Sequence record: NC_055781.1
Length of the DNA stretch: 64,000 nt
Direction: 5' to 3' (one strand)
DNA from: Escherichia phage p000v
This document shows, one piece after another, positions 3,015 to 64,000 of the stretch. Each line of letters opens with the position of its first letter. Within the stretch, counting starts at the first letter, position 1. The notes under the pieces were generated by a model, which saw only the letters and a program-made list of their open reading frames with translations, was not told the DNA's origin and did no database searches. A program made the position numbers and the translations under genes.

Positions 3015-3022
3015 TTTAATTC

Positions 3023-3316: not shown

Positions 3317-3318
3317 TT

Positions 3319-3834
3319 TTATGGCCTCGCATAAACATAGTTTCGTAATTGTTGAGCCCATTTGCTCCAATTTCCTACTATAGTTTTTGTATAAACCTTA
3401 GTAAGAGTTTTTTGTACTGGAGCCGGTGGAGGTTCTGTACCAGAGTCACTTCTAGAGCCGCCTGATGAACTTTCTTCTTGGTAGTTATAAATCATTTCAA
3501 CCGTATAACTAAACACTTTACGAAGATTCTGAGGAGCTCTCCACAAATATAACTGTGTGGATTCATCTTTTGGTAAATCATCCCATGAAGATGCAGTTTT
3601 AAAATCATCATTTAATCGATATTTCAATGCATCCGAAGAAAAGCTAAACACACTTTCATATGTTCCATATAAATGATTACCATCAACAGTAATGCCTTGT
3701 GTCGGTTCATAATCTATTATATTTATTGACACTAAAGTTTCGGACGTTTCTAACTGTGGAGTAAAAAGGACGTCAATAGACGCCCCTTCCATGTCTTCTC
3801 CTAAGTCGGTATTTAAAGGAAGTATTTGTGCCAT
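3319..3834 (-). CDS. conserved protein between genes 5 and 5.4 (gp5.1-like)
   Basis: 171-aa ORF tightly packed between gp5 and gp5.4 on same strand; no motif recognised. Confidence 0.6.
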
Positions 3835-5571: not shown

Positions 5572-6146
5572 TATGCAATCTCCATCTCACGAATCAAATC
5601 AGTAATAAACGAGTTTATATCTTCTTTTGCAACAATTTTTATTTTACGAAGTTTTTCATTATCTAATACTGCCGCTTCATAAGTATCTACTGCAGCTAAA
5701 GGTCCTTTATATTGCGGATACTTACGAGCTTCGTCACCTTTGTCATACCACACTAAAGGCTCATCCGGATATGAAACTAAATTGTAAAATTTCTCACGGT
5801 TCTCGTTAATATGGTAAAGAATTTGGTCTCCGCCAGCATTTGCATATTTCTGAATAGACGCTTGATACGCTGCTTCCTGAGATGTAATCCAACCATAATA
5901 TGGGTCATAGTTATCATTGCACATCAAAAGGACCCAGTATAATTGAGGGTTGCCATAAATTATGTTTGCTAGTTCTTCAGGACGCGGAGAGCCTTTAATA
6001 TAATAAGAACGTAATCTATAATTAGCAGCAACACGCTTAAAGTACTCTTTATAGTTACGAAATATGTCTGTCATAGGAATAGTAGGTGCATTCTTATCAA
6101 CTGTTTTAGCACTATATCCTATTGGGTCGAAGAATGTAAATAACAA
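5571..6146 (-). CDS. 53: baseplate wedge protein gp53
   Basis: 191 aa MLFTFFDPIGY...; first codon is TTG preceded by AGGAGA SD; 1-nt overlap with gp5 start. Confidence 0.85.
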   Translation of the reverse strand: MLFTFFDPIGYSAKTVDKNAPTIPMTDIFRNYKEYFKRVAANYRLRSYYIKGSPRPEELANIIYGNPQLYWVLLMCNDNYDPYYGWITSQEAAYQASIQKYANAGGDQILYHINENREKFYNLVSYPDEPLVWYDKGDEARKYPQYKGPLAAVDTYEAAVLDNEKLRKIKIVAKEDINSFITDLIREMEIA

Positions 6147-6173
6147 AATAGTCTCCTTCCAATATGAAATTGG

Positions 6174-6181
6174 TATAAATA
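6174..6181 (+). promoter_or_regulatory. T4-type late promoter TATAAATA, upstream of gene 4
   Basis: Exact TATAAATA about 27 nt upstream of gp4 ATG. Confidence 0.6.
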
Positions 6182-6188
6182 ATAATAC

Positions 6189-6196
6189 TATTTATA
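6189..6196 (-). promoter_or_regulatory. T4-type late promoter TATAAATA (reverse strand), upstream of gene 53
   Basis: Plus-strand TATTTATA is reverse complement of TATAAATA, about 43 nt upstream of gp53 start; divergent with the gene 4 promoter. Confidence 0.55.
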
Positions 6197-6207
6197 AGGA
6201 GGACAAC

Positions 6208-6657
6208 ATGGCCTACTCTGGTAAATGGGTCCCAAAAAATTTAAAAAAATACCGTGGAGACCATACCAAAATAACGTATCGTTCAAACTGGGAAAAATTC
6301 TTTTTCGAATGGTTAGATAAAAATCCAGAAATTATTGCATGGGGCAGCGAAACGGCAGTAATTCCATATTTCTGTAACGCAGAAGGTAAAAAACGTCGAT
6401 ACTTTATGGATATATGGATGAAAGATGCATCAGGTCAAGAGTTCTTTGTAGAAATAAAACCAAAGAAAGAAACTCAACCACCTATTAAGCCTGCAAATCT
6501 TACGACCGCAGCAAAGAAACGTTATATGAATGAAATCTACGTGTGGTCTGTGAACTGCGACAAATGGAAAGCTGCGTCAGCATTAGCGGCTAAAAGAAAT
6601 ATTAAATTCAGAATTCTCACAGAAGACGGTTTACGTCGTTTAGGATATAAGGGATGA
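6208..6657 (+). CDS. 4: head completion protein gp4
   Basis: 149 aa from MAYSGKWVPKNLKKYRGD with GGAGGA SD; matches T4 gp4 as recalled; track N-terminal extension rejected. Confidence 0.85.
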   Translation: MAYSGKWVPKNLKKYRGDHTKITYRSNWEKFFFEWLDKNPEIIAWGSETAVIPYFCNAEGKKRRYFMDIWMKDASGQEFFVEIKPKKETQPPIKPANLTTAAKKRYMNEIYVWSVNCDKWKAASALAAKRNIKFRILTEDGLRRLGYKG

Positions 6658-6658
6658 T

Positions 6659-7309
6659 ATGTATACTGTATATAAAATAACTAACATCGTAAATAATAAA
6701 ATTTATATAGGTGTTCATAAAACTAATAACCCGGATGATTCTTATAAAGGAACAGGTAAAATTATCTTAAAAGCCCATGCTAAATACGGATTAGATAATT
6801 TTGTAAAAGAAGTATTATATGTGTATGATACCGGTGACGAATTACTAAATGAAGAAATGGCTTTCCAAAAGGAAGCAGAATTAGTTGATCAATCTTTTGT
6901 GGATAGAGAAGATACATATAATATAGACCTAGGAGGAAAGGGAGGACGAGGCCGTTCTATTGATGTGCGAAAAAGAATAGGCGATTCATCCAGAGGTAGA
7001 AAATTAGGTCCTATTTCCGAAGAATCTAAAAAGAAAATGAGTTTAGCTAAGAAGGGTAAGAAATTATCCGAAGAGCATAAAGCTAAAATAGGTAAAGCAG
7101 GCCGAGGCAGGATAATGCCTAAAGAGATTAGAGACAAAATAAAAAATACTCTTACGGGACGAAATAGAACTCCTGAAGAAAAGGAAAACATGAGATTAGG
7201 ATACTTAAATACTCCTAATAAGATATGCCAATACTGCGGTATAGAATGTAAACCTGCGCCTTATAAACGTTGGCATGGTGATAATTGTAAAATGAGGAAA
7301 GTTGAATGA
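6659..7309 (+). CDS. GIY-YIG homing endonuclease (Seg-like)
   Basis: N-terminal [23 protein letters not shown] motif; basic C-terminal DNA-binding region; inserted between genes 4 and 2 with ATGA overlap onto gene 2. Confidence 0.85.
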
Positions 7310-8127
7310 GCATATTCCAAATTATATCTGAAGGCGTACAAGCCCCTAAGATTGCTCAGTCTATTAACGAAAGAAAATGGATTAAGGTGGGATTAGAGTA
7401 CAAGAAAGCTAAAGAGAAAGGAATCACTGCAAAAGCATTTGCAGAATCAAAAGGAATAAAATACTCGACGTTTAAGTCTGCAATGTCTAAATATGCATCG
7501 GCTATTAAAACTGAACAGAAAATTGAAACACTTGAATCTAAACCTAAAAATAAACTCAATAAGCAAGAACGTCAACTTCTGATGATAAACTCGTTTCGCA
7601 GTTCAATACGAGAAAAGATTAGAAATGAAGGCGCAGCAGTAAACAACAAATCATCTAAGTGGTTTGTTGAAACAATTAAGAAAAGTGTAAAAGGTCATAA
7701 AGTAGTCAAGCCTACGCCAGGCAAAATTTATACTTACGTGTATGATGCTAAACATAAAGATACTCTGCCATACTGGGACAGATATCCTTTGATTATTTAT
7801 TTAGGATTAGGTAAACATAATTTGTTGTATGGGTTAAACTTGCACTATATCCCACCTAAAGCACGACAACAGTTTCTTGAAGAATTGCTGAAGCAATATG
7901 CTAGCACAACTACTATTACTAATAACACAAAGTTGAAGATAGACTGGAGCAAGGTGAAAGGATTTCAAGGTGCTGACAAAATGATTAAAGCATACCTGCC
8001 AGGCCACATTAGAGGAACAATAACAGAAATCGCTCCTAAAGACTGGGCTAACATAATCATGTTACCTACTCAGCAGTTTATGTCAAAAGGAAAACGTTTC
8101 TCTGCGAATACTGTTTGGAAATCTTAA
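7306..8127 (+). CDS. 2: DNA end protector protein gp2
   Basis: 273 aa; size and position (between 4 and 3) as in T4; basic protein. Confidence 0.75.
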
Positions 8128-27546: not shown

Positions 27547-28006
27547 AAACTATATCAAGGGCGATATTGTCGCCCTGTTTTCTGAAGGTAAAAATGTTGC
27601 TCATGGTTGTAACTGTTTCCATACAATGGGCGCAGGAGTAGCCGGGCAATTAGCGAAGGCCTTTCCAAAGATTTTAGAAGCCGATAAACTTCAAACCGAA
27701 TTCGGAGACGAGTCTAAACTTGGGTCTTATTCGGTTTATGAAAAATATTTTAAGACCCATAAAGCTTATTGCTTTAATCTTTATACACAGTTTGAGCCGG
27801 GACCTAATTTTGAGTACTCTGCTTTAATGAATTGTATAATAGAATTAAATGAATTCGGAAAAAATAAGATAACAAAGCCTGTAATTTATATGCCAAGAAT
27901 TGGTGTAGGTATAGGTGGTGGAAACTGGGATATCATTGAAGAAATTCTTGATACATATTCCACTAAACTAGAAATTGTGATTGTTGATTGGGAACCATTG
28001 CTATGA
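27539..28006 (+). CDS. macrodomain protein (TARG1/OARD1-DarG-like), non-ATG start
   Basis: GDIVALF...VAHGCNCFHTMGAGVAGQLAKAF and MPRIGVGIGGGNW motifs; no in-frame ATG before the GDI strand; GTG 27539 proposed (TTG 27509/27530 alternatives). Confidence 0.65.
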   Translation: MIKNYIKGDIVALFSEGKNVAHGCNCFHTMGAGVAGQLAKAFPKILEADKLQTEFGDESKLGSYSVYEKYFKTHKAYCFNLYTQFEPGPNFEYSALMNCIIELNEFGKNKITKPVIYMPRIGVGIGGGNWDIIEEILDTYSTKLEIVIVDWEPLL

Positions 28007-53643: not shown

Positions 53644-56355
53644 ATGAAAGAATTTTACTTAACGGTTGAACAGATTGGTGATTCAATTTTTGAACGTTAC
53701 ATCGATTCTAATGGCCGTGAACGTACTCGTGAAGTAGAATATAAACCATCACTGTTTGCTCATTGTCCGGAAAGTCAGGCTACGAAATATTTTGATATCT
53801 ACGGTAAGCCGTGTACTCGTAAACTATTCGCTAACATGCGTGATGCGTCTCAATGGATTAAACGCATGGAAGATATCGGACTTGAAGCACTTGGCATGGA
53901 CGATTTCAAATTAGCGTATTTGTCTGACACTTATAACTATGAAATCAAATACGACCATACAAAAATTCGTGTGGCTAACTTCGACATCGAAGTAACATCT
54001 CCGGATGGGTTCCCTGAGCCGTCACAAGCAAAACATCCTATTGATGCTATCACCCATTATGACTCAATTGACGACAGGTTCTACGTATTTGATCTATTGA
54101 ATTCTCCATATGGTAATGTAGAAGAATGGTCTATTGAAATCGCTGCTAAGCTTCAAGAACAAGGTGGTGATGAAGTTCCATCTGAAATTATCGATAAAAT
54201 CATTTATATGCCGTTCGATAACGAAAAAGAATTGTTGATGGAATATCTCAACTTCTGGCAACAGAAAACTCCTGTCATTTTGACTGGATGGAACGTTGAG
54301 TCATTTGATATTCCATATGTGTATAACAGAATCAAGAATATTTTTGGCGAATCTACTGCGAAACGTTTATCACCACATCGTAAAACTCGTGTTAAAGTTA
54401 TCGAAAACATGTATGGTTCTCGTGAAATCATTACATTGTTCGGTATCTCTGTTCTTGATTACATTGACCTTTACAAAAAATTCTCTTTTACCAATCAACC
54501 GTCGTATTCTCTGGATTACATTTCAGAATTTGAATTGAACGTTGGTAAACTGAAATATGACGGCCCTATTTCTAAGCTTCGTGAAAGCAATCACCAACGA
54601 TATATTTCTTATAACATCATCGACGTGTATCGTGTATTGCAAATTGATGCTAAGCGCCAGTTCATCAACTTGAGTTTGGACATGGGTTATTATGCTAAGA
54701 TACAGATTCAATCTGTGTTCAGCCCAATTAAAACATGGGATGCTATTATTTTTAATAGCCTTAAAGAGCAGAACAAGGTGATTCCACAAGGTCGTTCTCA
54801 CCCGGTTCAACCTTATCCTGGCGCTTTTGTTAAGGAACCTATTCCAAATCGATACAAATATGTAATGAGTTTCGACCTTACATCTCTGTATCCAAGTATT
54901 ATTCGCCAAGTGAATATTAGCCCAGAAACAATAGCAGGAACGTTTAAAGTAGCTCCATTGCATGATTATATTAACGCAATCGCTGAACGTCCTTCAGATG
55001 TGTACAGCTGCTCTCCTAATGGCATGATGTATTATAAAGACCGTGATGGTGTAGTTCCAACTGAAATCACTAAGGTCTTTAATCAACGTAAAGAACATAA
55101 AGGTTACATGCTTGCAGCTCAACGTAATGGTGAAATAATTAAAGAGGCATTGCATAATCCTAATCTTTCTGTTGACGAACCATTAGATGTTGATTATCGT
55201 TTCGACTTCACTGATGAGATTAAAGAAAAGATTAAAAAGTTGTCTGCTAAATCTCTTAATGAAATGTTGTTCAGAGCTCAACGTACTGAAGTTGCAGGTA
55301 TGACTGCACAAATTAACCGTAAATTGCTTATCAACTCACTTTATGGTGCACTTGGAAACGTTTGGTTCCGTTATTACGATTTGCGTAATGCAACTGCAAT
55401 CACAACATTTGGTCAAATGGCTTTACAGTGGATTGAACGTAAAGTTAATGAATATCTGAATGAAGTTTGTGGTACAGAAGGTGAAGCTTTCGTTCTTTAT
55501 GGTGATACAGACTCTATTTACGTATCTGCAGATAAAATTATTGATAAGGTTGGTGAATCTAAATTCCGTGATACCAACCATTGGGTGGACTTTTTAGATA
55601 AGTTTGCACGTGAACGTATGGAACCGGCTATTGATAGAGGTTTCCGTGAAATGTGTGAATACATGAACAATAAACAACACTTAATGTTCATGGACCGAGA
55701 AGCTATCGCTGGTCCTCCGCTCGGTTCTAAAGGTATTGGTGGATTCTGGACTGGTAAGAAACGTTATGCATTAAACGTGTGGGATATGGAAGGTACTCGT
55801 TACGCTGAGCCTAAACTCAAAATCATGGGTCTAGAGACTCAGAAATCTTCGACCCCTAAAGCAGTACAGAAAGCTCTTAAAGAATGTATTCGTCGTATGC
55901 TTCAAGAAGGTGAAGAATCATTACAAGAATATTTTAAAGAGTTTGAAAAAGAATTCCGTCAATTGAATTATATTAGCATCGCGTCGGTATCTTCTGCGAA
56001 TAACATTGCTAAATATGACGTTGGTGGATTCCCTGGTCCTAAATGCCCGTTCCATATTCGTGGAATTCTGACATATAACAGAGCTATCAAAGGTAATATT
56101 GATGCTCCACAAGTTGTAGAAGGCGAAAAGGTATACGTTCTGCCTTTACGTGATGGAAACCCGTTCGGTGATAAATGTATCGCATGGCCTTCTGGTACTG
56201 AAATCACAGATTTAATTAAAGACGACGTACTTCATTGGATGGACTACACTGTTCTCCTTGAGAAGACATTTATTAAACCACTTGAAGGATTCACATCAGC
56301 AGCGAAACTCGATTACGAGAAGAAAGCATCTCTGTTCGATATGTTCGATTTTTGA
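53644..56355 (+). CDS. 43: DNA polymerase gp43
   Basis: 903 aa; B-family motifs (DIEV exo, SLYPS, KKRYA, YGDTDS); length as recalled for RB69-type polymerase. Confidence 0.97.
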   Translation: MKEFYLTVEQIGDSIFERYIDSNGRERTREVEYKPSLFAHCPESQATKYFDIYGKPCTRKLFANMRDASQWIKRMEDIGLEALGMDDFKLAYLSDTYNYEIKYDHTKIRVANFDIEVTSPDGFPEPSQAKHPIDAITHYDSIDDRFYVFDLLNSPYGNVEEWSIEIAAKLQEQGGDEVPSEIIDKIIYMPFDNEKELLMEYLNFWQQKTPVILTGWNVESFDIPYVYNRIKNIFGESTAKRLSPHRKTRVKVIENMYGSREIITLFGISVLDYIDLYKKFSFTNQPSYSLDYISEFELNVGKLKYDGPISKLRESNHQRYISYNIIDVYRVLQIDAKRQFINLSLDMGYYAKIQIQSVFSPIKTWDAIIFNSLKEQNKVIPQGRSHPVQPYPGAFVKEPIPNRYKYVMSFDLTSLYPSIIRQVNISPETIAGTFKVAPLHDYINAIAERPSDVYSCSPNGMMYYKDRDGVVPTEITKVFNQRKEHKGYMLAAQRNGEIIKEALHNPNLSVDEPLDVDYRFDFTDEIKEKIKKLSAKSLNEMLFRAQRTEVAGMTAQINRKLLINSLYGALGNVWFRYYDLRNATAITTFGQMALQWIERKVNEYLNEVCGTEGEAFVLYGDTDSIYVSADKIIDKVGESKFRDTNHWVDFLDKFARERMEPAIDRGFREMCEYMNNKQHLMFMDREAIAGPPLGSKGIGGFWTGKKRYALNVWDMEGTRYAEPKLKIMGLETQKSSTPKAVQKALKECIRRMLQEGEESLQEYFKEFEKEFRQLNYISIASVSSANNIAKYDVGGFPGPKCPFHIRGILTYNRAIKGNIDAPQVVEGEKVYVLPLRDGNPFGDKCIAWPSGTEITDLIKDDVLHWMDYTVLLEKTFIKPLEGFTSAAKLDYEKKASLFDMFDF

Positions 56356-56395
56356 TATAATGCCATGGACGGTAAACTAATTAAATGAGAGAAAT

Positions 56396-57031
56396 ATGAA
56401 AACTACACCAATCACTATCGCTATTGACGCAATCGTAAAACAAGCTTCATCTCTTGCCACTATGGCTAAAGTAATTAGTCAAAACTCTGCCCGATATAAT
56501 GCTATTCTTGAAACTCTTCGTCGCCCTGGACTGAGTAATTATGAAAGCCGAGTAATTATTACAGGTGTTGGTAAGAACGCTAATATCGCAACTAAAGCTT
56601 CCGAGACTTTTGCTTCACTAGGTATTCCTAGCATGTATTTGAACACCGGGCATTATTCTCATGGCGACGCAGGATTTATTGCACCTAATGATGTATTAGT
56701 TCACATCAGTCGTTCTGGTAAGACTGAAGAAATGATAGGTGTTGCTAAACATCTTCGTATGATTCGTCCTCAGGTTAAACAGATTCTGTTACATTGTAAC
56801 CCTGACATTCCGCAAGAATACGAAGCTCTTTTTGATTATACGTTCTGTACAGGCATCGCGGTAGAGGTTGATGAGAATTCTCTGGCTCCGACCATGTCCA
56901 CTACATTGTTGTTAGCGCTTATCGATACGTTTGCTATCAACCTTTCGTCTGAACGTGGATTTACCTCTAATGACTTCCTTAAGTTCCACCCTGGTGGTGC
57001 ACTAGGTGCCATGTTACGAGGCGAACAATGA
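56396..57031 (+). CDS. SIS-domain sugar-phosphate isomerase (KdsD/GutQ-like, no CBS domains)
   Basis: VIITGVGKNANIATKASETFASLGIPS, HGDAGF, ISRSGKTEE, HPGGALGAM motifs parallel arabinose-5-phosphate isomerase SIS domain. Confidence 0.8.
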   Translation: MKTTPITIAIDAIVKQASSLATMAKVISQNSARYNAILETLRRPGLSNYESRVIITGVGKNANIATKASETFASLGIPSMYLNTGHYSHGDAGFIAPNDVLVHISRSGKTEEMIGVAKHLRMIRPQVKQILLHCNPDIPQEYEALFDYTFCTGIAVEVDENSLAPTMSTTLLLALIDTFAINLSSERGFTSNDFLKFHPGGALGAMLRGEQ

Positions 57032-57171
57032 AAGCAATAACAATAGGACTTTTACTATTGATGCTTGTCATGACTATCTACTGGAGCTTAACGGCTCCAG
57101 TAATGATTCCGACTCTTATAATCGGATGGATTATGATTGGACTACAAGCAAAGTATGAATGCTTTAACTAG
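57028..57171 (+). CDS. small membrane peptide (47 aa)
   Basis: Not in track; ATGA-coupled to SIS gene; two hydrophobic segments; position recalls T4 imm. Confidence 0.4.
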   Translation: MKAITIGLLLLMLVMTIYWSLTAPVMIPTLIIGWIMIGLQAKYECFN

Positions 57172-57212
57172 AATAGTGTACAATACACCTACTTACCAAT
57201 GAGGACTTCAAC

Positions 57213-58898
57213 ATGAAAAAAGCTGTTATTCTTGGTGCTGGACTGGCAACTCGTTTGTATCCAATAACGCACCATATTCCTAAGGTGCTTGTTAACTATA
57301 AACAAGACACTATTCTGAGCAATTTGTATACAATTTATTCTGACCTTGGCGCAGATGAAATTATTGTAGTAGTTCATTCAAAATTTGCTGAAACTGTTCG
57401 AGCTTATTGCGAGCAAGAAGGGTTCAATGTGACTATTCGTACAGTTGATGAAGCGTATGGTTCTGCTTATGCTCTTGCTAAATTATACAAAGATTTAGAT
57501 GGCCATAACGTAATTGTTAACTGGTGTGATATTATTCCTGACTTTGGTTCATGGTCTTGGAATGTTAACGCAATCTATGTTAAGGGTGATGAATGTCGAT
57601 ATAATTTCGATGGTGAAAATATCACTAACGTAGGTTCAACAGGTGGTAATGTTGTAGGAATTTATCAGTTCAAAGACTGGGAATTCTACATGGGTTCTAC
57701 TGATGAGGAAATTCACGAATACTGCAAAGGTCGTGATTTCGTAGAATTCCTTTACGGCAGTGCATTCAATAAATCAGAGCTTATGAATCTAATTGATTTA
57801 GGTGATATGCCTAAACTTGAAAAGGCTCATGAAGTTCGTGAACTGAATCGTAGTTTTAATGCAGTTGAAATTGGCGAAGAAACTGTAACTAAATTCGCGT
57901 TAACCGAACAAGGTCGAGCTCTTCAAAAAGATGAGATTTCATGGTATTTGAAAGTGAAATCAGATTCAGTTCCTCAGTTAGTTTCGGTAAATGAAAATAA
58001 TTTTGAAATGGAACGTATTAAAGGTAAGCCGGCATTTGAATATATTAAATCCAAATCAAGTCTTGCTCGTCCACAAATTGTTGATGCAATTTTAGATGCA
58101 CTGAAATTCAGCACGGACACTTATTTTGTAAGTCCTGAAACTGTTCGCCGTGATTTCACTAAAGAGTTCTATACGAAAGTTATTGATCGTTGTGAAAGCA
58201 TTCAGCCATTGATTGATTCATTTGGTAAAATCACACGTGTGAACTACACTAAGATTGGACGTCTGAAGCCAATGTTGAAACAAGCTTTAGAACATCTTAT
58301 TCGTTATCATAACCGTTCTCAGGGACAGTACTCTGTTATTCATGGTGACCCGAACTTCAGTAATACTATGATTACCGATAACGGCGAAGTCAAGTTTATC
58401 GACCCTCGTGGATATTTTGGTGAAACCAAGATTTACGGGCCAAAATTGTATGATGAAGCTAAAGTGCTTTATGCTGTTTCAGGTTATGATGAATTCAATG
58501 CTAATCCGACCTGGGGTCAGTTTACTATTGATGAAACAACTTGTAATGTGACTATTAACATCAATCCATTAGTTTACAAATATGGAAAGATGAGTTCGTT
58601 TAACGAGTATCATCATTTGGCAGTAGCAATTATCTGGATTGCATTAGGTGGTTATTTCAAGAATAATCCACTTAAAGCGGTTGCCGCATATTATAAAGGT
58701 ATGGAACTTCTGACTAAGCAATTACGTAACATGGGCCGTGTACTTCAAGACGGCTCTATTAGTTATGACGTAGCAGAACCTGTAACGGCTACTCTGATTA
58801 CAAAAAATCCTGGTAAATGGGTACTAACTGATAAAGAAACTGGTGTTTCCTATCGTCCAATCGGCGGCGATATCACTCATCAATGGGAACGAATCTAA
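57213..58898 (+). CDS. bifunctional sugar-1-phosphate nucleotidyltransferase / APH-like sugar kinase
   Basis: N-terminal ILGAGLATRLYPIT (RmlA/GalU-type); C-terminal HGDPNFSNTMI...VKFIDPRG (aminoglycoside/choline-kinase fold); 561 aa. Confidence 0.8.
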   Translation: MKKAVILGAGLATRLYPITHHIPKVLVNYKQDTILSNLYTIYSDLGADEIIVVVHSKFAETVRAYCEQEGFNVTIRTVDEAYGSAYALAKLYKDLDGHNVIVNWCDIIPDFGSWSWNVNAIYVKGDECRYNFDGENITNVGSTGGNVVGIYQFKDWEFYMGSTDEEIHEYCKGRDFVEFLYGSAFNKSELMNLIDLGDMPKLEKAHEVRELNRSFNAVEIGEETVTKFALTEQGRALQKDEISWYLKVKSDSVPQLVSVNENNFEMERIKGKPAFEYIKSKSSLARPQIVDAILDALKFSTDTYFVSPETVRRDFTKEFYTKVIDRCESIQPLIDSFGKITRVNYTKIGRLKPMLKQALEHLIRYHNRSQGQYSVIHGDPNFSNTMITDNGEVKFIDPRGYFGETKIYGPKLYDEAKVLYAVSGYDEFNANPTWGQFTIDETTCNVTININPLVYKYGKMSSFNEYHHLAVAIIWIALGGYFKNNPLKAVAAYYKGMELLTKQLRNMGRVLQDGSISYDVAEPVTATLITKNPGKWVLTDKETGVSYRPIGGDITHQWERI

Positions 58899-59284
58899 TG
58901 CACCGTGTAGAAAACATGCTTAATCTTTGTTTTGATGTCGATGATTGTATAACAGAGTGGAATAACAATCGTGATTACGTGAACTTCAAACCAGACGTCG
59001 AAATGGTGTCTGCCATTAATGCCCTGTATGATGCAGGGCATACCATAACGCTTTACACTGCCCGTGGTATGAAGTCGGTAGGTCCTGGTCGTATAGCAAT
59101 TGACATTCTCCCAAGTCTGATTCAGAACTTGGAAAACATTGGTTTGAAGTACCATAATTTGCTAACACATAAACCAGTATATGATTGGATTATCGACGAC
59201 AAAGCTATGCGTCCTGACGAATTCAAAGCTCTTATGAATAAAGGCGAATTCGAAACATTTAAATCATATAAACCAAATCTATAA
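58898..59284 (+). CDS. HAD-superfamily phosphatase-like protein
   Basis: N-terminal FDVDDCIT (DxD motif I) and later K...DD; start taken at ATG overlapping upstream stop (TAATG). Confidence 0.55.
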   Translation: MHRVENMLNLCFDVDDCITEWNNNRDYVNFKPDVEMVSAINALYDAGHTITLYTARGMKSVGPGRIAIDILPSLIQNLENIGLKYHNLLTHKPVYDWIIDDKAMRPDEFKALMNKGEFETFKSYKPNL

Positions 59285-59341
59285 TAATTTAAGTAAGACC
59301 TGCAAAAACCATCGCATCAATTAACGCGAGATGCAAAAAAA

Positions 59342-60502
59342 ATGAATACTTTTAAAATCGGAACGAATTTTGATTTAGCTCTTCTTGATAAAATCGTAGA
59401 GCTCAATAAAACCTATCCTAATAGCTTGATAAACGAAGTATATGGCTCTACAAGAGAAATGGCTTTTGTAGCAGCCAGACCTGATTTTAGGCTTCCTGAC
59501 GTTGACAAAAAGATGTTAGAAGACTACGTTAAACGTTGTAACGAATTAGGTATTTGCTTTAACTATACACTCAACACGATAAATCCTGGTTCAAAAAGAG
59601 AACTAGTTGAGTGGAAGAAGAAAGCTATTCAGGATTATGTTCAGTATCTTTGGTCAATAGGCGTATGGCGTATTACTATCGCTAACCCTGTTGTTATGGA
59701 AATTGTTCGTGAAGTCAATAAAGATATTGAGATTGAAGTTTCAACAATTCTACATGTCGATGCGGTAACTCAAATCAAATACTTACATGACCAATATAAC
59801 ATCAAAAAGGTCTGTTGCGGAATTCATAAGAACCGTTCAGTTTCTTTCCTGAAGCGTGCAGCAGAGTTTTGCAATAAGAACAATATAATATTTGAAGTTC
59901 TTGTAAATGAGTTCTGTTCTAATGCTGGTAAAGGGTATACAACACATTGTAGTTATCGTGACTCTTGCTATATTTTCCATAGTACTGATGTTACCGCTGA
60001 TGATGCTAAATCCTTAAATGGATATCCTATGCAGCACTGTATTAAAGCTCGTGATACAGACCCATTTAACTGGTTGAGAACTCGTTTTGTTCGTCCTCAA
60101 GATTTGAAACTTTATAATGATATTGGTATCACTCAATTCAAAGTTTCAGGACGTACAGGTAGCACAGACTACATTTTGAAAGTTCTTGAAGCATACGCTT
60201 CTGAAAAGTTTGAAGGTAATTTGTTAGAACTGTGGAAGCCTTTAGAGACTATTTTCACTCTTGAAAATGAGACTGAGTTTTCACATACAGTAAATATTGA
60301 AACCTCTTTGTTAGATGGCTTTTTAGAAAAAAGGTGGTTCAGACATCCAGATTTTGATTGTGCTAATGAAATCTGTGGGTCAACGTGTACATATTGTGAA
60401 AGGTATTATAAACGTCAATTATCTAAAAACGGGTTAGCAGAAAACTCCATATCTATTATTGATATAACTAACTCTGATGACGCTTTGAGGTACCCGGAAT
60501 GA
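59342..60502 (+). CDS. Cys-rich protein, possible peptidase-U32-like Fe-S enzyme
   Basis: EVLVNEFCSNAGKGYTTHCSYRDSCYIF and C-terminal CANEICGSTCTYC clusters; resemblance to U32 signature is partial. Confidence 0.6.
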   Translation: MNTFKIGTNFDLALLDKIVELNKTYPNSLINEVYGSTREMAFVAARPDFRLPDVDKKMLEDYVKRCNELGICFNYTLNTINPGSKRELVEWKKKAIQDYVQYLWSIGVWRITIANPVVMEIVREVNKDIEIEVSTILHVDAVTQIKYLHDQYNIKKVCCGIHKNRSVSFLKRAAEFCNKNNIIFEVLVNEFCSNAGKGYTTHCSYRDSCYIFHSTDVTADDAKSLNGYPMQHCIKARDTDPFNWLRTRFVRPQDLKLYNDIGITQFKVSGRTGSTDYILKVLEAYASEKFEGNLLELWKPLETIFTLENETEFSHTVNIETSLLDGFLEKRWFRHPDFDCANEICGSTCTYCERYYKRQLSKNGLAENSISIIDITNSDDALRYPE

Positions 60503-60738
60503 TTTCTAGAAAAAGTTTTAATTATAAACTTAACGAAGAGATTTTGACTATGAAACTGAACACTAACGAACAAATTCTTAAAAAGGCCCTTATGGGCCTG
60601 TTTGAAACCAAAGCGGCTAAAGTGATTAAAGAACCTGTTCAATTGGAATACTACGCTGATGCATTTCTTCATAGTGTTCTTGGAAGTATCGATGCTGAAG
60701 CTTTACGTTATATCAACATTGTCAAGAAATTCAAATAA
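60499..60738 (+). CDS. hypothetical protein
   Basis: 79-aa ORF, ATGA-coupled. Confidence 0.5.
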   Translation: MISRKSFNYKLNEEILTMKLNTNEQILKKALMGLFETKAAKVIKEPVQLEYYADAFLHSVLGSIDAEALRYINIVKKFK

Positions 60739-60780
60739 GCTTTACGAATTGAGTATATAATAAATTGTATTGAGGTAAAC

Positions 60781-61497
60781 ATGGGAAAACATAACACAAT
60801 GAAATATATCAAAGCCGCAGATTTTCAAACCGCATTTAAAGCAGTCAATCGTGAAATTTTAGAAAACCCGGAATTCGTAACTGATTCTCGTATTGGACGT
60901 TGTAATGAAATTGGGTCTATGACAGTAGTTGTTGACACTCCATCATCATTCAAAATGACCGACCCACGTATTAACCGCATCTCTTATGAATATGCCGAAG
61001 ACTTCTGGAAGTTTATGATTTCTGGTGGTACCAACGCAGAAGAAGCGTTTAAGGCATATCCTAATGTCGCTAAATTTATTTCTAAACCAAAATCAGATGT
61101 TTTGCCGGCGAACTTCAACACTTTCTATGGTCCTCGCATTGCGGCCCAATTACCAACTCTTCTAAAAGAACTTAAAGAGAAGCCTAACTCCCGAAGAGTT
61201 GTGTTCCAAATTCTAGAAAGTTCTGATCAGGCTTTGCTTGATTCGGACGAAACACTTGAATATCCATGTACTGACTCAGTAACTTATTATATTCGTGATG
61301 GTAAGCTTTATACCCACTGTCATATGCGTTCTCAGAACTGTGCTGTTGTTATGCAGTTGGATTTTTATCTCCAAGGAAAATTACTTCATTATATCGCTAA
61401 CGAATGCGGTGTAGAAGTTGGTGATTATACTCATACCATGGTAAGTGCCCATGTGTTTGAACGTGATTTTGATTATGTTAAAGGATTCCTTGACTAA
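60781..61497 (+). CDS. 42: pyrimidine hydroxymethylase, dCMP hydroxymethylase gp42-like (thymidylate synthase fold)
   Basis: YPCTDSVTYYIRDGKL and HMRSQNCAVVMQLDFY align with T4 gp42 catalytic Cys region and Asp specificity residue as recalled. Confidence 0.75.
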   Translation: MGKHNTMKYIKAADFQTAFKAVNREILENPEFVTDSRIGRCNEIGSMTVVVDTPSSFKMTDPRINRISYEYAEDFWKFMISGGTNAEEAFKAYPNVAKFISKPKSDVLPANFNTFYGPRIAAQLPTLLKELKEKPNSRRVVFQILESSDQALLDSDETLEYPCTDSVTYYIRDGKLYTHCHMRSQNCAVVMQLDFYLQGKLLHYIANECGVEVGDYTHTMVSAHVFERDFDYVKGFLD

Positions 61498-62396
61498 TGG
61501 CTATTTTCCGCGTACCAATCTTGAGTATGCGGTCTTATGAAACTGGACAGTATGCTATCCTTAAGGATGGCAACTTCCAACTTCATTTGCACCGTGCTAA
61601 TCCGGGTGATGTGATTACATATCCACGTAATGCATCTGATATTAAAGAATGCGAACGTCTTTTCCCAGAATTTAAGTTTGTTCCATTATGGTATAAAGAT
61701 AACGCGTATAACACTCGTAAATATTTCTGGACTGAAAATGAATTTGTGGTTGATTCATTAATTGATTATTATGATTGTGATTTTCTAATCACAGATATCA
61801 CTGGTTATGGTGGCGCTTTTGATGTGGAATTCAATTTCAATATCACTGCAGACCCTAATAAACCACGTTTTTATATTGATGAATTCTTAAAAACCGACAT
61901 GTTGTCTGTTAATCGTTCACTTCAAACTACTGTGTTGAATGAACGTCAAAAAGAAGTGCTGGTTAACGCAGGTGCAGATGGTAATAAGATTATCGTAACG
62001 CAGAAAGTTATACGTCCTTCCATCATGCAGCGTCTTGTAGGTGATTTGGCTCCTATTCATCTAGATGGTATTTTTCATCCATTTCGAATTAGTGACCCAT
62101 GTTATCGTTTTGAACAAGTGGTTGAATGTGCAATTCAATTAGGTCAACCGCTTTATATAACCGATCCAAATAATAGCTTCGACAGAAATAAGTATCCTGA
62201 AGAAGCGCTGATTCGAATTTTTAAACCAACTAAAACTGAGTACTATCAAATTCTTAAAGGACGTCCGAAAATTCAATATTTCGAAAATCCTGAAGAAGTA
62301 TTCCATCCAGGTCTTGGTGAGTTCATCTACTTTAATGCTTTAATTTCTTCGCCGTATAATATACCTAAATACGAAGATGTCGTAATCGAGGAATAA
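61497..62396 (+). CDS. hypothetical protein in beta-glucosyltransferase position (candidate DNA glycosyltransferase)
   Basis: 299-aa ORF between gp42-like gene and uvsX; no motif recognised; function inferred from synteny only. Confidence 0.6.
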   Translation: MAIFRVPILSMRSYETGQYAILKDGNFQLHLHRANPGDVITYPRNASDIKECERLFPEFKFVPLWYKDNAYNTRKYFWTENEFVVDSLIDYYDCDFLITDITGYGGAFDVEFNFNITADPNKPRFYIDEFLKTDMLSVNRSLQTTVLNERQKEVLVNAGADGNKIIVTQKVIRPSIMQRLVGDLAPIHLDGIFHPFRISDPCYRFEQVVECAIQLGQPLYITDPNNSFDRNKYPEEALIRIFKPTKTEYYQILKGRPKIQYFENPEEVFHPGLGEFIYFNALISSPYNIPKYEDVVIEE

Positions 62397-62397
62397 A

Positions 62398-62946
62398 ATG
62401 GCTAAAATTATTTTAGTAGATGGCCCGGATAATGCCGGTAAAACAACTTTCATTAATGACATAATGGAAATTAGTGAAAGATATGTAAAGATTGATTTCC
62501 CTAAACGAACAGTTGATGGACGTTTCGATGTTAAGTCTCGAAATGAAGTTGGCTGTTTCGAAACGATGTTGAATTATTTAGACCCTACTAAGATTTATCT
62601 GTTAGACCGTGGATATATTAGTAACTGGGTTTATGGACGTATTCGACAAGATGCGGACTCGATTCTTGACGTTTATGAACAGGACTATGTTCGTCTTTGC
62701 CAAAACCATGATGTGTTCACAATTATTTTAACACGTAACGAAATGACTGAAAGTTTTGAAGACGACCTTATTACTTTGTCTTCATTCGGTTTTAATACAG
62801 TCATTTCACATTTTGAAGAGTTTGCAATTCATAACAAAATCCAAACATATCAATTACTTAATCATGATGGTGCTAACAAAGTTATAGGATTTAATGCAAG
62901 CGAACGTAATGGTTTGATTACAGAAATCATCAAATGGGCTCGTTAA
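62398..62946 (+). CDS. P-loop kinase-like protein
   Basis: Walker A GPDNAGKTT near N-terminus; 182 aa; dNK/thymidylate-kinase-like size. Confidence 0.65.
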   Translation: MAKIILVDGPDNAGKTTFINDIMEISERYVKIDFPKRTVDGRFDVKSRNEVGCFETMLNYLDPTKIYLLDRGYISNWVYGRIRQDADSILDVYEQDYVRLCQNHDVFTIILTRNEMTESFEDDLITLSSFGFNTVISHFEEFAIHNKIQTYQLLNHDGANKVIGFNASERNGLITEIIKWAR

Positions 62947-63045
62947 GAGCCTGTTTAAAGTTTTAAATGCTGTATAACCCTTAGTATATAATCGTTTTAT
63001 CTTTTAAACATGAGTAAAATATAATGATGCCTATGGAAAAATACA

Positions 63046-64000
63046 ATGTCTGATTTAAAATCTCGTCTGATTAAAGCTTCTACTTCTAAAATGACTGCAG
63101 ACTTGACTAAGTCTAAGCTGTTTAATAATCGTGATGAAGTCCCTACTCGTATTCCGATGTTGAATATTGCACTAGGTGGTGCTCTGAATGCAGGATTGCA
63201 ATCAGGCTTGACTATTTTTGCTGCACCTTCTAAACACTTTAAAACGCTGTTTGGACTAACTATGGTTGCAGCGTATATGAAGAAATATAAAGATGCAATC
63301 TGTTTGTTCTATGACTCAGAATTTGGTGCTTCAGAATCTTATTTTCGTTCAATGGGTGTTGATTTAGACCGTGTAGTTCATACACCAATTCAGTCCGTCG
63401 AACAACTTAAAGTTGATATGACTAATCAGCTTGACGCGATTGAACGCGGTGATAAAGTTATTATCTTTATCGATTCAATCGGTAATACTGCATCTAAGAA
63501 AGAAACCGAAGATGCATTGAATGAGAAAGTCGTAGGTGATATGTCTCGTGCTAAGGCACTTAAATCTCTGTTCCGTATTGTGACCCCGTATCTGACTATT
63601 AAAGATATTCCGTGTGTTGCAATCAACCATACAGCAATGGAAATCGGCGGACTATATCCTAAAGAGATTATGGGTGGTGGTACAGGTATTCTTTATTCTG
63701 CCAACACGGTATTTTTTATCTCTAAACGTCAGGTTAAAGAAGGTACAGAATTGACCGGTTATGACTTCACGTTGAAAGCAGAAAAATCTCGTACAGTTAA
63801 AGAGAAATCTACTTTCCCGATCACGGTTAATTTCGATGGTGGTATCGACCCATTCAGTGGCTTGCTAGAAATGGCAACTGAAATCGGTTTTGTGGTTAAG
63901 CCTAAAGCTGGTTGGTATGCTCGTGAATTCCTTGACGAAGAAACAGGTGAAATGATTCGTGAAGAAAAATCATGGCGTGCTAAAGCTACTGATTGTGTAG
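63046..64000 (+). CDS. uvsX: RecA-like recombinase UvsX, N-terminal portion (continues beyond window)
   Basis: MSDLKSRLIKASTSKMTADLTKSKLFNN...; colinear with T4 UvsX; Walker A GLTIFAAPSKHFKT. Confidence 0.93.
   Translation, partial: MSDLKSRLIKASTSKMTADLTKSKLFNNRDEVPTRIPMLNIALGGALNAGLQSGLTIFAAPSKHFKTLFGLTMVAAYMKKYKDAICLFYDSEFGASESYFRSMGVDLDRVVHTPIQSVEQLKVDMTNQLDAIERGDKVIIFIDSIGNTASKKETEDALNEKVVGDMSRAKALKSLFRIVTPYLTIKDIPCVAINHTAMEIGGLYPKEIMGGGTGILYSANTVFFISKRQVKEGTELTGYDFTLKAEKSRTVKEKSTFPITVNFDGGIDPFSGLLEMATEIGFVVKPKAGWYAREFLDEETGEMIREEKSWRAKATDCV

What the first reader, a model, noticed from the sequence alone, without database searches (positions are those of the whole stretch)
57213..58898. 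Single-polypeptide sugar-1-P nucleotidyltransferase plus anomeric kinase
The N-terminal 230 residues carry the GxGxRLxPxT signature of sugar-1-phosphate nucleotidyltransferases; the C-terminal half carries the HGDxxxxN and DPRG signatures of the aminoglycoside/choline-kinase fold. Fusion of kinase and pyrophosphorylase is the salvage logic used for sugars a host does not normally activate.
Basis: seen in the sequence. Interest (0 to 1): 0.7.

Follow-up and report, generated by a model that had tools for sequence, protein, structure and literature searches.

The report
Known phage arabinose-activating bifunctional enzyme

Summary
Window 57213-58898 (+) is one intact 561-codon gene. Its N-terminal domain is a sugar-1-phosphate nucleotidyltransferase and its C-terminal domain is an APH/choline-kinase-fold kinase. 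The window is a Mosigvirus (RB69-like T-even phage). The protein is 100% (aa 1-218) and 99.4% (aa 219-561) identical to RB69 ORF53_52c (gp52:53). Thomas et al. 2018 resequenced that gene, showed it is one 561-residue protein, and proposed it for UDP-arabinose synthesis. Lee et al. (NAR 2026) equate it with AfhE of phage HY126. They cite He et al. (Nat Chem Biol 2026) for AfhE being a D-arabinose-5-phosphate kinase plus UDP-D-arabinose pyrophosphorylase. The flanking genes fit this: an arabinose-5-P isomerase upstream, and a HAD phosphatase, the 5-hydroxy-dCMP synthase and an arabinosyltransferase downstream. The route is de novo: ribulose-5-P, then Ara-5-P, Ara-1,5-P2, Ara-1-P and UDP-Araf. 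This parallels ADP-heptose synthesis. Verdict: already known, low interest. The more interesting lead lies outside the finding. The neighbouring U32 "peptidase" is highly conserved, and in many relatives a chorismate mutase follows it directly. This suggests an O2-independent, prephenate-dependent hydroxylase.

The parts
57213..58898 (+). Whole gene: 561-aa bifunctional enzyme. It is the ortholog of RB69 ORF53_52c (gp52:53) and the counterpart of HY126 AfhE. The exact sequence is YP_010100133.1 of Escherichia phage p000v.
   Evidence: ORF. Identity to RB69 is 100% and 99.4% over the two frames.
57213..57836 (+). N-terminal sugar-1-phosphate nucleotidyltransferase domain (aa 1-208), the predicted UDP-arabinofuranose pyrophosphorylase.
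57234..57269 (+). Nucleotide-binding signature GAGLATRLYPIT (aa 8-19), followed by PKVL with K24.
   Evidence: Regex check. Aligned to the LicC motif AAGLGTRLRPLT.
57858..58733 (+). C-terminal kinase domain of the APH/choline-kinase/fructosamine-kinase fold (aa 216-507), the predicted Ara-5-P 1-kinase.
58341..58364 (+). Catalytic loop HGDPNFSN (aa 377-384), i.e. the Brenner motif HxDxxxxN.
58401..58412 (+). DPRG (aa 397-400). It holds the metal-binding Asp in the position equivalent to DFG, plus an invariant Arg.
   Evidence: Also conserved in the giant-virus fusion P0087.
58734..58895 (+). C-terminal tail of about 54 residues, mostly coil with short beta strands, lower pLDDT (81-89). It is absent from distant homologs and from the four-domain fusions. 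Role unknown.
   Evidence: for secondary structure and pLDDT. Query coverage is about 88-90% in distant homologs. P0087 ends at query residue 497.
56396..57031 (+). SIS-domain arabinose-5-phosphate isomerase (RB69 gp55), converting Ru5P to Ara5P. It feeds the target enzyme.
   Evidence: Pfam SIS. NCBIfam KpsF/GutQ 8.5e-32 and KdsD 3.4e-30. 96.2% identical to RB69. Literature.
58898..59284 (+). HAD-type phosphatase (RB69 gp51, counterpart of AfhF), converting Ara-1,5-P2 to Ara-1-P. The start shares one base with the target's stop (TAATG). An alternative ATG lies at 58883.
   Evidence: NCBIfam TIGR01689 capsule biosynthesis phosphatase 1.9e-13. Junction sequence. 98.4% identical to RB69. Literature.
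59342..60502 (+). Peptidase_U32-family protein (RB69 gp50). It is part of the cluster, but its role in the pathway is not established.
   Evidence: Pfam U32 7.3e-11. At least 80% identity in 220 phage records. See Noticed in passing.
60781..61497 (+). Thymidylate-synthase homolog, the 5-hydroxy-dCMP synthase (RB69 gp48). It makes the acceptor base.
   Evidence: Pfam Thymidylat_synt. 98.7% identical to RB69 gp48, whose activity was shown experimentally.
61497..62396 (+). Putative DNA arabinosyltransferase 1 (RB69 gp46:47). It is one 299-aa ORF here, and is the consumer of the NDP-arabinose.
   Evidence: ORF. It matches RB69 p047 and p046 in two frames. Literature.
62398..62946 (+). Thymidylate-kinase-like nucleotide kinase (RB69 gp45).
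   Evidence: 98.4% identical to RB69. Literature Table 1.

Best explanation
The gene encodes the Mosigvirus version of the bifunctional enzyme that makes the sugar donor for arabinosylating 5-hydroxycytosine in phage DNA. The phage isomerase (56396-57031) converts host ribulose-5-phosphate to D-arabinose-5-phosphate. The C-terminal kinase domain of this protein uses ATP to phosphorylate the anomeric C1 hydroxyl, giving arabinofuranose-1,5-bisphosphate. The HAD phosphatase encoded immediately downstream removes the 5-phosphate. The N-terminal nucleotidyltransferase domain then condenses arabinofuranose-1-phosphate with UTP to give UDP-D-arabinofuranose. The cluster's glycosyltransferase(s) transfer that sugar onto 5-hydroxycytosine in DNA. 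Shown here: the domain folds, the conserved catalytic residues, near-identity to RB69 ORF53_52c and the gene context. Taken from the literature: the RB69 DNA chemistry and the AfhE/AfhF activities in phage HY126, the latter second-hand through PMC13326640. Inferred: that this particular protein has the same substrates, order of steps and nucleotide specificity.
For: The gene is a single intact ORF with two confident domains. Catalytic-type residues of both domains are invariant across 51 homologs down to about 29% identity. The protein is 100% and 99.4% identical to the corrected RB69 ORF53_52c. RB69 DNA carries mono- and di-arabinosylated 5-hydroxycytosine, and RB69 gp52:53 is assigned as the AfhE counterpart. 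[quoted passage not shown] Thomas 2018 resequenced the gene and expressed it as one protein of about 64 kDa. The context is isomerase, this gene, HAD phosphatase, U32, 5hodCMP synthase, glycosyltransferase and kinase. This context recurs at the same locus in Kanagawavirus, Marfavirus, Tegunavirus, Winklervirus, Bragavirus, Dhakavirus and Thanatos. Rosetta-stone support comes from distant homologs that fuse HAD, SIS, nucleotidyltransferase and kinase in one chain. The 54%-identical homolog TH1_060 is essential for Shewanella phage Thanatos.
Against: No activity has been measured for this protein or for RB69 gp52:53. The biochemistry is for HY126 AfhE. I could read that only as cited by PMC13326640, and I could not obtain the HY126 sequence to measure its identity to this protein. 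Table 1 of the same paper still lists the alternative order, in which the phosphatase makes free arabinose and the kinase then makes Ara-1-P. The Thanatos homolog showed no pyrophosphorylase activity with xylose-1-P and any NTP. That is uninformative for arabinose, but it is not positive support either. UTP specificity is inferred only from the glycosyltransferase analogies and from AfhE.
Confidence: 0.85

Rival explanations
1. Phosphatase-first, salvage-like order. The HAD enzyme dephosphorylates Ara-5-P to free D-arabinose. The kinase domain is then a true free-sugar anomeric kinase making Ara-1-P, which the N-terminal domain activates.
For: Table 1 of PMC13326640 labels RB69 gp51 'dephosphorylates Araf5p to Ara' and the C-terminal domain 'Phosphorylates Ara to Araf1p'. 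The closest characterised kinases of this fold that act on sugars (glucosamine kinase 6hwl cited there; NahK and AmgK from my own knowledge) use free sugars.
Against: The text of the same paper adopts the bisphosphate route on the strength of the HY126 AfhE/AfhF assays. The HAD protein resembles bisphosphate phosphatases: the paper's AFDB Foldseek hit for the DLP3 homolog gp81 is GmhB-type heptose-1,7-bisphosphate 7-phosphatase, and the window protein hits the capsule phosphatase family TIGR01689. The gene order (kinase/NTase gene before the phosphatase gene, sharing one base at the junction) fits either order and does not decide.
Confidence: 0.1
2. It is a LicC/LicA-type fusion, i.e. a choline (or other amino-alcohol) kinase plus CTP:phospho-alcohol cytidylyltransferase. 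It would make a CDP-alcohol rather than an NDP-sugar.
Against: Identity to LicC is only about 20%. RmlA-type enzymes, MurU and HddC score almost the same. The gene is flanked by an arabinose-5-P isomerase, a sugar-phosphate phosphatase and a glycosyltransferase. The DNA of RB69 and other Mosigviruses carries arabose-derived groups, specifically arabinose, with no phosphocholine reported. Homologs are fused to SIS isomerase domains.
Confidence: 0.02
3. It is GlmU, as many GenBank records annotate it: a bifunctional GlcNAc-1-P uridylyltransferase plus acetyltransferase.
For: Depositors' annotations read 'bifunctional protein GlmU'. There are weak NCBIfam glmU hits over residues 3-104.
Against: The glmU models score 15-22 bits against cut-offs of 367-718, and they cover only the shared nucleotide-binding N-terminus. 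The C-terminal half is a kinase fold, not a left-handed beta-helix acetyltransferase.
Confidence: 0.01

Closest known systems
RB69 ORF53_52c, also called gp52:53 (Thomas et al. 2018, PMC6024577; Lee et al. 2026, PMC13326640)
   Same: It is the same gene in a sister phage: 561 aa, 100% identity over aa 1-218 and 99.4% over aa 219-561, at the same locus with the same neighbours.
   Different: The RB69 reference record carries one extra C that splits the gene into p053 and p052. The window has the intact frame. There is no functional difference.
AfhE of Escherichia phage HY126 (He et al., Nat Chem Biol 2026, as cited in PMC13326640)
   Same: It is reported to have the same two-domain architecture and to be the D-arabinose-5-P kinase plus UDP-D-arabinose pyrophosphorylase of the arabinofuranosyl-5-hydroxycytosine pathway. 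It works with the phosphatase AfhF.
   Different: I could obtain neither the sequence nor the paper, so the identity to this protein is unknown. It could be anywhere from about 42% to about 99%, depending on the genus of HY126. The activities are shown for AfhE, not for this protein.
Acinetobacter phage DLP3 gp82 and Shewanella phage Thanatos TH1_060
   Same: They are full-length homologs, at 57% and 54% identity, and sit in equivalent clusters. TH1_060 is essential for phage growth.
   Different: DLP3 DNA is tri-arabinosylated, and its cluster has no U32 gene. The Thanatos modification was described as a (deoxy)pentose, and TH1_060 showed no activity with xylose-1-P.
ADP-heptose pathway: GmhA (SIS isomerase), HldE (bifunctional kinase/adenylyltransferase) and GmhB (HAD phosphatase). 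From my own knowledge of the pathway.
   Same: The logic is identical: a ketose phosphate is isomerised by a SIS enzyme, an anomeric kinase makes a 1,n-bisphosphate, a HAD phosphatase removes the distal phosphate, and a nucleotidyltransferase activates the product. The kinase and transferase are fused in one chain. Databases even mislabel the phage genes 'phosphoheptose isomerase'.
   Different: The domains are not homologous. The HldE kinase has a ribokinase (PfkB) fold and its transferase has a cytidylyltransferase fold. Here the kinase has the APH/ChoK fold and the transferase is of the RmlA/LicC type. The substrate is a C5 sugar, not a C7 sugar.
AmgK-MurU (MurNAc/GlcNAc anomeric kinase plus MurNAc-1-P uridylyltransferase) and LicA-LicC (choline kinase plus cytidylyltransferase)
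   Same: They pair the same two folds: an APH-type kinase and a minimal nucleotidyltransferase. MurU and LicC are top structural hits for the N-terminal domain, and LicA hits the C-terminal domain.
   Different: They are usually separate proteins acting on a free sugar or alcohol (true salvage). Identity is only about 15-20%. No isomerase, phosphatase or bisphosphate step is involved.

Membership tests
AfhE / RB69 ORF53_52c family (bifunctional Ara-5-P 1-kinase / UDP-Araf pyrophosphorylase of phage arabinosyl-5hoC clusters) | Single polypeptide with an N-terminal nucleotidyltransferase and a C-terminal APH-fold kinase | tested here: met
   One 561-codon ORF. Two confident domains. 362 of 372 phage records have one full-length match.
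AfhE / RB69 ORF53_52c family (bifunctional Ara-5-P 1-kinase / UDP-Araf pyrophosphorylase of phage arabinosyl-5hoC clusters) | Sequence orthology to the described RB69 protein | tested here: met
   100% identity (aa 1-218) and 99.4% (aa 219-561). The only frame-breaking difference is one extra C in the RB69 reference record.
AfhE / RB69 ORF53_52c family (bifunctional Ara-5-P 1-kinase / UDP-Araf pyrophosphorylase of phage arabinosyl-5hoC clusters) | Clustered with an arabinose-5-P isomerase, a HAD phosphatase, the 5hodCMP synthase and a DNA glycosyltransferase | tested here: met
   The same synteny is seen in seven other genera.
AfhE / RB69 ORF53_52c family (bifunctional Ara-5-P 1-kinase / UDP-Araf pyrophosphorylase of phage arabinosyl-5hoC clusters) | Sequence homology to HY126 AfhE itself | not testable with these tools
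   The paper and the sequence are not held.
AfhE / RB69 ORF53_52c family (bifunctional Ara-5-P 1-kinase / UDP-Araf pyrophosphorylase of phage arabinosyl-5hoC clusters) | Ara-5-P kinase and UDP-Ara pyrophosphorylase activities | not testable with these tools
   This needs an enzyme assay. The activities are reported only for AfhE, second-hand.
Sugar-1-phosphate nucleotidyltransferases (Pfam NTP_transferase PF00483) | Profile match above the curated cut-off | tested here: met
   38.4 bits against 21.2, E 1.3e-9, although the match covers only residues 3-99.
Sugar-1-phosphate nucleotidyltransferases (Pfam NTP_transferase PF00483) | Glycine-rich G-x-G-(x)n-R-L-x-P-x-T loop plus a downstream Lys | tested here: met
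GAGLATRLYPIT at aa 8-19 and K24. G10, R14 and K24 are invariant.
Sugar-1-phosphate nucleotidyltransferases (Pfam NTP_transferase PF00483) | Rossmann-like nucleotidyltransferase fold | tested here: met
APH / choline-kinase / fructosamine-kinase superfamily (eukaryotic-like kinase fold) | Pfam family profile above the curated cut-off | tested here: not met
   For the window protein the best hits are Fructosamin_kin at 16.9 (cut-off 22.4) and EcKL at 16.2 (cut-off 22). The 42%-identical homolog P0056 does pass APH PF01636, at 25.6 against 23.2.
APH / choline-kinase / fructosamine-kinase superfamily (eukaryotic-like kinase fold) | Catalytic loop HxDxxxxN and a metal-binding Asp about 18 residues later | tested here: met
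   HGDPNFSN at aa 377-384 and D397 of DPRG. G378, D379, N384 and D397 are invariant, and H377 is at least 90% conserved.
APH / choline-kinase / fructosamine-kinase superfamily (eukaryotic-like kinase fold) | Bilobal kinase fold | tested here: met
GlmU (the database annotation) | NCBIfam glmU equivalog score, and a C-terminal left-handed beta-helix acetyltransferase | tested here: not met
   The score is 21.6 bits against a cut-off of 366.85. The C-terminal half is a kinase fold.
Free-sugar salvage pairs (AmgK/MurU, NahK, FKP-type) | The kinase acts on the unphosphorylated sugar taken up or recycled by the cell | not testable with these tools
   The context (an isomerase supplying Ara-5-P and a phosphatase downstream) and the cited AfhE data argue against it.

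The most novel reading that the evidence does not exclude
This concerns the same gene cluster but lies outside the finding's coordinates. The U32 'peptidase' two genes downstream (59342-60502, RB69 gp50) may be an O2-independent, prephenate-dependent hydroxylase. It would provide a second, anaerobic route to 5-hydroxycytosine, alongside the O2/flavin-dependent ThyA homolog. The activated arabinose made by the enzyme under review would then still have an acceptor when the phage infects in the anoxic gut. Supporting points: the U32 family includes RlhA (which makes 5-hydroxycytidine in rRNA), TrhP and UbiU/V. In at least 48 related phages an AroQ chorismate mutase, which makes prephenate, follows the U32 gene directly. 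The protein is far more conserved than its neighbours. It is absent from the Acinetobacter phages. I could not read He et al. 2026 or Mahler et al. 2025, so this idea may already be published. For the target gene itself, the only non-excluded novelty is that its phage-specific C-terminal tail docks the isomerase or phosphatase into a channelling complex, as the four-domain giant-virus fusions hint.
Probability: 0.4. Interest if true: 0.7.

Novelty: already known. Interest (0 to 1): 0.15.

Why it matters
The enzyme supplies the sugar donor for a DNA hypermodification (arabinosyl-5-hydroxycytosine) that shields T-even-like phages from restriction enzymes and affects CRISPR and other defences. 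This is relevant to phage therapy and phage engineering. That role was proposed in 2018 and was biochemically established for a counterpart enzyme in 2026. This window therefore adds only another near-identical copy. The practical value of this check is threefold. It shows that public annotation lags the literature ('hypothetical protein', 'GlmU', 'phosphoheptose isomerase'). It corrects the 'salvage' reading to a de novo route that parallels ADP-heptose synthesis. It also flags the neighbouring U32/chorismate-mutase module as a testable candidate for anaerobic cytosine hydroxylation.

Tried and rejected
The relaxed GxGxxxRLxPxT matches at aa 8-19.

(2) The GlmU annotation is rejected on scores and on the fold of the C-terminal half.

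(3) The LicC/LicA (phosphocholine) reading was considered because LicC is the top hit. It is rejected on gene context and on the known DNA chemistry.

(4) I tried to read He et al. 2026 and Mahler et al. 2025, but neither is held. No supplements are held for the NAR paper. I therefore could not compare directly with HY126 AfhE.

(5) There is no solved structure of a close relative. The best PDB sequence hit is LicC at 2.3e-5, on the N-terminal domain only.

(6) The afdb50 fold library was unavailable, so I made no search for full-length two-domain structural matches.

(7) A promoter/terminator scan of 56200-63200 found fewer promoter-like sites than the shuffles and nothing informative.

(8) On the side lead, Pfam finds nothing in the window's 79-aa ORF downstream of U32. 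That ORF is not the chorismate mutase; it belongs to a different small family.

(9) There is no chorismate-mutase homolog in the window. One weak tblastn hit at 27808-27975 (minus strand) is antisense to an unrelated ORF.

(10) The phage U32 protein shows no significant pairwise or profile similarity to E. coli UbiU, UbiV, RlhA or TrhP. It cannot be assigned to any characterised U32 subfamily.

(11) The link between U32 and facultatively anaerobic hosts is not strict. Dhakaviruses of E. coli have the AfhE cluster without U32.
Full report
**1. What is in the sequence**

Window 57213-58898 (+) is a single ORF of 561 codons (ATG to TAA). A GAGG ribosome-binding site lies about 8 nt upstream. An open frame this long is expected about 1e-13 times by chance in this window.

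The surrounding genes are the T4-type replication module: gp46, gp45, gp44, gp62, RegA and the gp43 DNA polymerase. Megablast identifies the region as a Mosigvirus, i.e. an RB69-like T-even phage. The best hits are 99.6-99.7% identical (phages FP43 and PECP20), and about 150 further phage records are 95-99% identical. The exact protein sequence is in public databases as YP_010100133.1, 'hypothetical protein KNU28_gp171 [Escherichia phage p000v]'.

**2. The two domains**

- **Pfam.** NTP_transferase matches residues 3-99 (E 1.3e-9, 38.4 bits against a cut-off of 21.2). Only sub-threshold kinase-family hits cover residues 354-409: Fructosamin_kin, EcKL and Seadorna_VP7.
- **Motifs.** The stated GxGxRLxPxT is not. 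The real signature is GAGLATRLYPIT, i.e. GxGxxxRLxPxT.
- **Conservation.** In 51 homologs down to about 29% identity, G10, R14, K24, D106, D195 and D198 are invariant in the N-terminal domain. K227, E241, G378, D379, N384, D397, P398, R399 and G400 are invariant in the C-terminal domain.
- **Structure.** An AlphaFold2 model built on that alignment is confident: mean pLDDT 94.2, pTM 0.90.
- **Homolog check.** A 42%-identical homolog, P0056, passes Pfam's APH cut-off.

The last 54 or so residues form a lower-confidence tail that distant homologs lack.

**3. It is a known gene**

The protein is 100% identical (aa 1-218) and 99.4% identical (aa 219-561) to the two reading frames of RB69 ORF053c and ORF052c. 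The only frame-breaking difference between the window and the RB69 reference is one extra C in RB69, at the position of window 57866 (codon 218, in the inter-domain linker).

Thomas et al. 2018 (PMC6024577) resequenced exactly this region. They found the C to be an error in the GenBank entry and renamed the gene ORF53_52c, a 561-residue protein. They saw a single induced band consistent with its predicted 63.9 kDa. Together with the isomerase ORF055c, they proposed it as a candidate for UDP-arabinose synthesis.

Lee et al. 2026 (PMC13326640) made three relevant points:
- RB69 DNA carries mono- and di-arabinosylated 5-hydroxycytosine, not 5-hydroxymethylcytosine.
- The ThyA homolog gp48 is an O2-using, flavin-associated 5-hydroxy-dCMP synthase.
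- gp52:53 is assigned as the counterpart of AfhE of phage HY126.

Citing He et al. [quoted passage not shown] It acts with the Mg-dependent phosphatase AfhF, the counterpart of gp51. Their structural hits (4y7t and 1jyk for the N-terminal domain, 3ham for the C-terminal domain) match mine. The 54%-identical homolog TH1_060 is essential in Shewanella phage Thanatos. I could not obtain He et al. 2026 or Mahler et al. 2025, so the AfhE biochemistry is second-hand.

**4. Context and mechanism**

| Position | Gene | Evidence |
|---|---|---|
| 56396-57031 (upstream) | SIS-domain KpsF/GutQ/KdsD-type arabinose-5-P isomerase | NCBIfam 8.5e-32 |
| 58898-59284 (downstream; TAATG, sharing one base with the target's stop) | 128-aa HAD phosphatase | TIGR01689, 1.9e-13 |
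| 59342-60502 | U32-family protein | |
| 60499-60738 | 79-aa ORF | |
| 60781-61497 | 5hodCMP synthase | |
| 61497-62396 | 299-aa glycosyltransferase (one ORF here, split in the RB69 record) | |
| 62398-62946 | Nucleotide kinase | |

The best-supported mechanism has five steps:
1. Ribulose-5-P is isomerised to Ara-5-P.
2. The C-terminal domain of this protein phosphorylates C1, giving Ara-1,5-P2.
3. The HAD phosphatase removes the 5-phosphate, giving Ara-1-P.
4. The N-terminal domain adds UMP from UTP, giving UDP-Araf.
5. The sugar is transferred to 5-hydroxycytosine in DNA.

This is de novo synthesis with the same logic as ADP-heptose synthesis (GmhA, HldE and GmhB), using non-homologous kinase and transferase folds. 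The phosphatase-first order, with free arabinose as the intermediate, is still listed in Table 1 of Lee et al.. I keep it as a minor rival.

Independent Rosetta-stone support comes from distant homologs of 890-955 aa. They fuse HAD, SIS, nucleotidyltransferase and kinase in one chain. P0087 aligns with this protein at 35% identity over residues 5-497 and keeps both kinase motifs.

**5. Distribution**

tblastn finds the gene in 372 phage records. In 362 of them it is one full-length match. They include Mosigvirus and other Escherichia and Shigella phages, and phages of Acinetobacter (57 records), Klebsiella, Vibrio, Serratia, Yersinia, Proteus and Shewanella. Public names are mostly 'hypothetical protein', 'NTP transferase domain-containing protein' or the incorrect 'bifunctional protein GlmU'. 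GlmU is excluded by score and by fold.

**6. Verdict on the finding**

The finding is real, correctly read at the domain level, and already known. It was a candidate from 2018, and a counterpart enzyme was biochemically defined in 2026. Interest is low.

**7. Side lead (outside the finding)**

The U32 'peptidase' at 59342-60502 (RB69 gp50) is listed by Lee et al. only as 'sugar or heterocycle reductase'. Their text does not mention U32, RlhA or prephenate.

Background on U32 proteins:
- RlhA is needed for 5-hydroxycytidine 2501 in 23S rRNA and depends on prephenate and Fe-S clusters (PMC5727448).
- TrhP is linked, like RlhA, to O2-independent hydroxylation of RNA (PMC10990095).
- UbiU and UbiV carry out O2-independent hydroxylation with prephenate as the O-donor (PMC10990095).

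- The phage U32 protein passes Pfam's cut-off (42.2 against 22.4).
- It is at least 80% identical in all 220 phage records that have it, while AfhE in the same genomes falls to 43-54%.
- All 13 of its cysteines are invariant across eight genera, including a C-terminal CX4CX3CX2C cluster.
- It is absent from all Acinetobacter phages that carry the AfhE cluster.
- In Kanagawavirus, Marfavirus, Tegunavirus, Winklervirus, Bragavirus, Thanatos and others, a small gene follows U32, directly or after one or two small ORFs. In most of these genomes its start overlaps the preceding stop codon.
- That gene is an AroQ chorismate mutase. All 7 members tested match Pfam CM_2 (best E 5.4e-12), and the profile hits PDB 1ybz at 6e-16.
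- tblastn finds this chorismate mutase in at least 48 phage records, always between U32 and the ThyA homolog.

A phage-encoded prephenate-making enzyme next to a U32 protein, inside a 5-hydroxycytosine cluster, suggests a specific hypothesis. The U32 protein may give an O2-independent route to 5hoC, complementing the O2-dependent gp48.

Caveats:
- The window's phage has no chorismate mutase and would have to use host prephenate.
- E. coli Dhakaviruses have the AfhE cluster without U32.
- The phage protein is not demonstrably close to any characterised U32 subfamily.
- The two papers I could not read may already address this.

Noticed in passing
window 59342-60502 (+); related loci L005:5983-7158, L006:2501-3637, L007:2501-3661, L009:2495-3661, L010:2492-3661, L011:2501-3670: The U32-family 'peptidase' (RB69 gp50) in the arabinosyl-5hoC cluster is at least 80% identical in all 220 phage records that carry it, far more conserved than its neighbours. 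All 13 of its Cys are invariant, including a C-terminal CX4CX3CX2C cluster. It is absent from Acinetobacter, Vibrio and Dhakavirus phages that have the AfhE gene. The U32 family includes the prephenate-dependent, O2-independent hydroxylases RlhA (5-hydroxycytidine), TrhP and UbiU/V. It is therefore a candidate anaerobic cytosine-5 hydroxylase. The readable literature calls it only 'sugar or heterocycle reductase'.
   Followed up: partly
L005:7155-7394, L006:3634-3891, L007:3658-3903, L008:4030-4404, L009:3878-4171, L010:3658-4002, L011:3888-4145 (no counterpart in the window): In many relatives an AroQ chorismate mutase of about 80 aa lies just downstream of the U32 gene. In four of the seven its start overlaps the U32 stop; in the others it follows one or two small ORFs. 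All 7 match Pfam CM_2, and the profile hits PDB 1ybz at E 6e-16. It occurs in at least 48 phage records, always between U32 and the ThyA homolog. It makes prephenate, the O-donor of U32 hydroxylases. Mosigviruses, including this window, lack it.
   Followed up: yes
window 60499-60738 (+): A 79-aa ORF (RB69 gp49) starts inside the U32 stop codon region. It has no Pfam hit and is not the chorismate mutase. It belongs to a separate small family also found in Yersinia phage TG1 (L009:3697-3894) and Serratia phage 92A1 (L011:3667-3891), where it sits alongside the chorismate mutase. Function unknown.
   Followed up: partly
P0087 on L002:8001-10781 (NCBI GCA_013558355.1, 103-kb contig); also P0088, P0089, P0091, P0093, P0095, P0097, P0103, P0105-P0107, P0118, P0120: Distant homologs of 890-955 aa fuse HAD, SIS, nucleotidyltransferase and APH-fold kinase in one chain. 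That puts the whole ribulose-5-P to NDP-arabinose pathway into one protein. P0087 lies beside a MutS+HNH gene, RNA polymerase Rpb2 and RNA_pol_N in a compact arrangement typical of giant viruses. P0091 comes from a Ceratiomyxa fruticulosa (slime mould) transcriptome. This suggests giant viruses or their hosts make NDP-arabinose. The target of that sugar is unknown.
   Followed up: partly
window 57866 (codon 218 of the target) and window 61497-62396; L001 (RB69 NC_004928) 6095-7781 and 2598-3498: The RB69 reference genome splits both the target gene (p053/p052) and the glycosyltransferase (p047/p046). The window has both as single ORFs. In my alignment the extra base in the target gene maps to RB69 coordinate 29126. 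Thomas et al. 2018 quote C-29116, a 10-nt discrepancy that I did not resolve.
   Followed up: partly
window 57028-57171 (+): A 47-aa strongly hydrophobic ORF (MKAITIGLLLLMLVMTIYWSLTAPVMIPTLIIGWIMIGLQAKYECFN) has a start that overlaps the isomerase stop codon (ATGA). It is conserved in RB69 (p054, annotated shorter), and a transmembrane ORF holds the same position in Klebsiella phage KLB31. It looks like a small membrane protein embedded in a cytoplasmic sugar-nucleotide operon. Role unknown.
   Followed up: no
window 56396-62946 and the matching GenBank/RefSeq records: Public annotation of this cluster is widely wrong or empty. The target is labelled 'bifunctional protein GlmU' or 'hypothetical'. 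The HAD phosphatase is labelled 'phosphoheptose isomerase' or 'polynucleotide kinase'. The glycosyltransferase is labelled 'RNA polymerase binding protein'. The 5hodCMP synthase is labelled 'dCMP hydroxymethylase' or 'thymidylate synthase'.
   Followed up: no
window 58734-58895 (aa 508-561 of the target): The T4-like phage versions of the enzyme carry a C-terminal tail of about 54 residues (conserved TKxPxKWxLxDxET...W) with lower model confidence. It is missing from distant two-domain homologs and from the four-domain fusions. It might be a docking or oligomerisation element.
   Followed up: no
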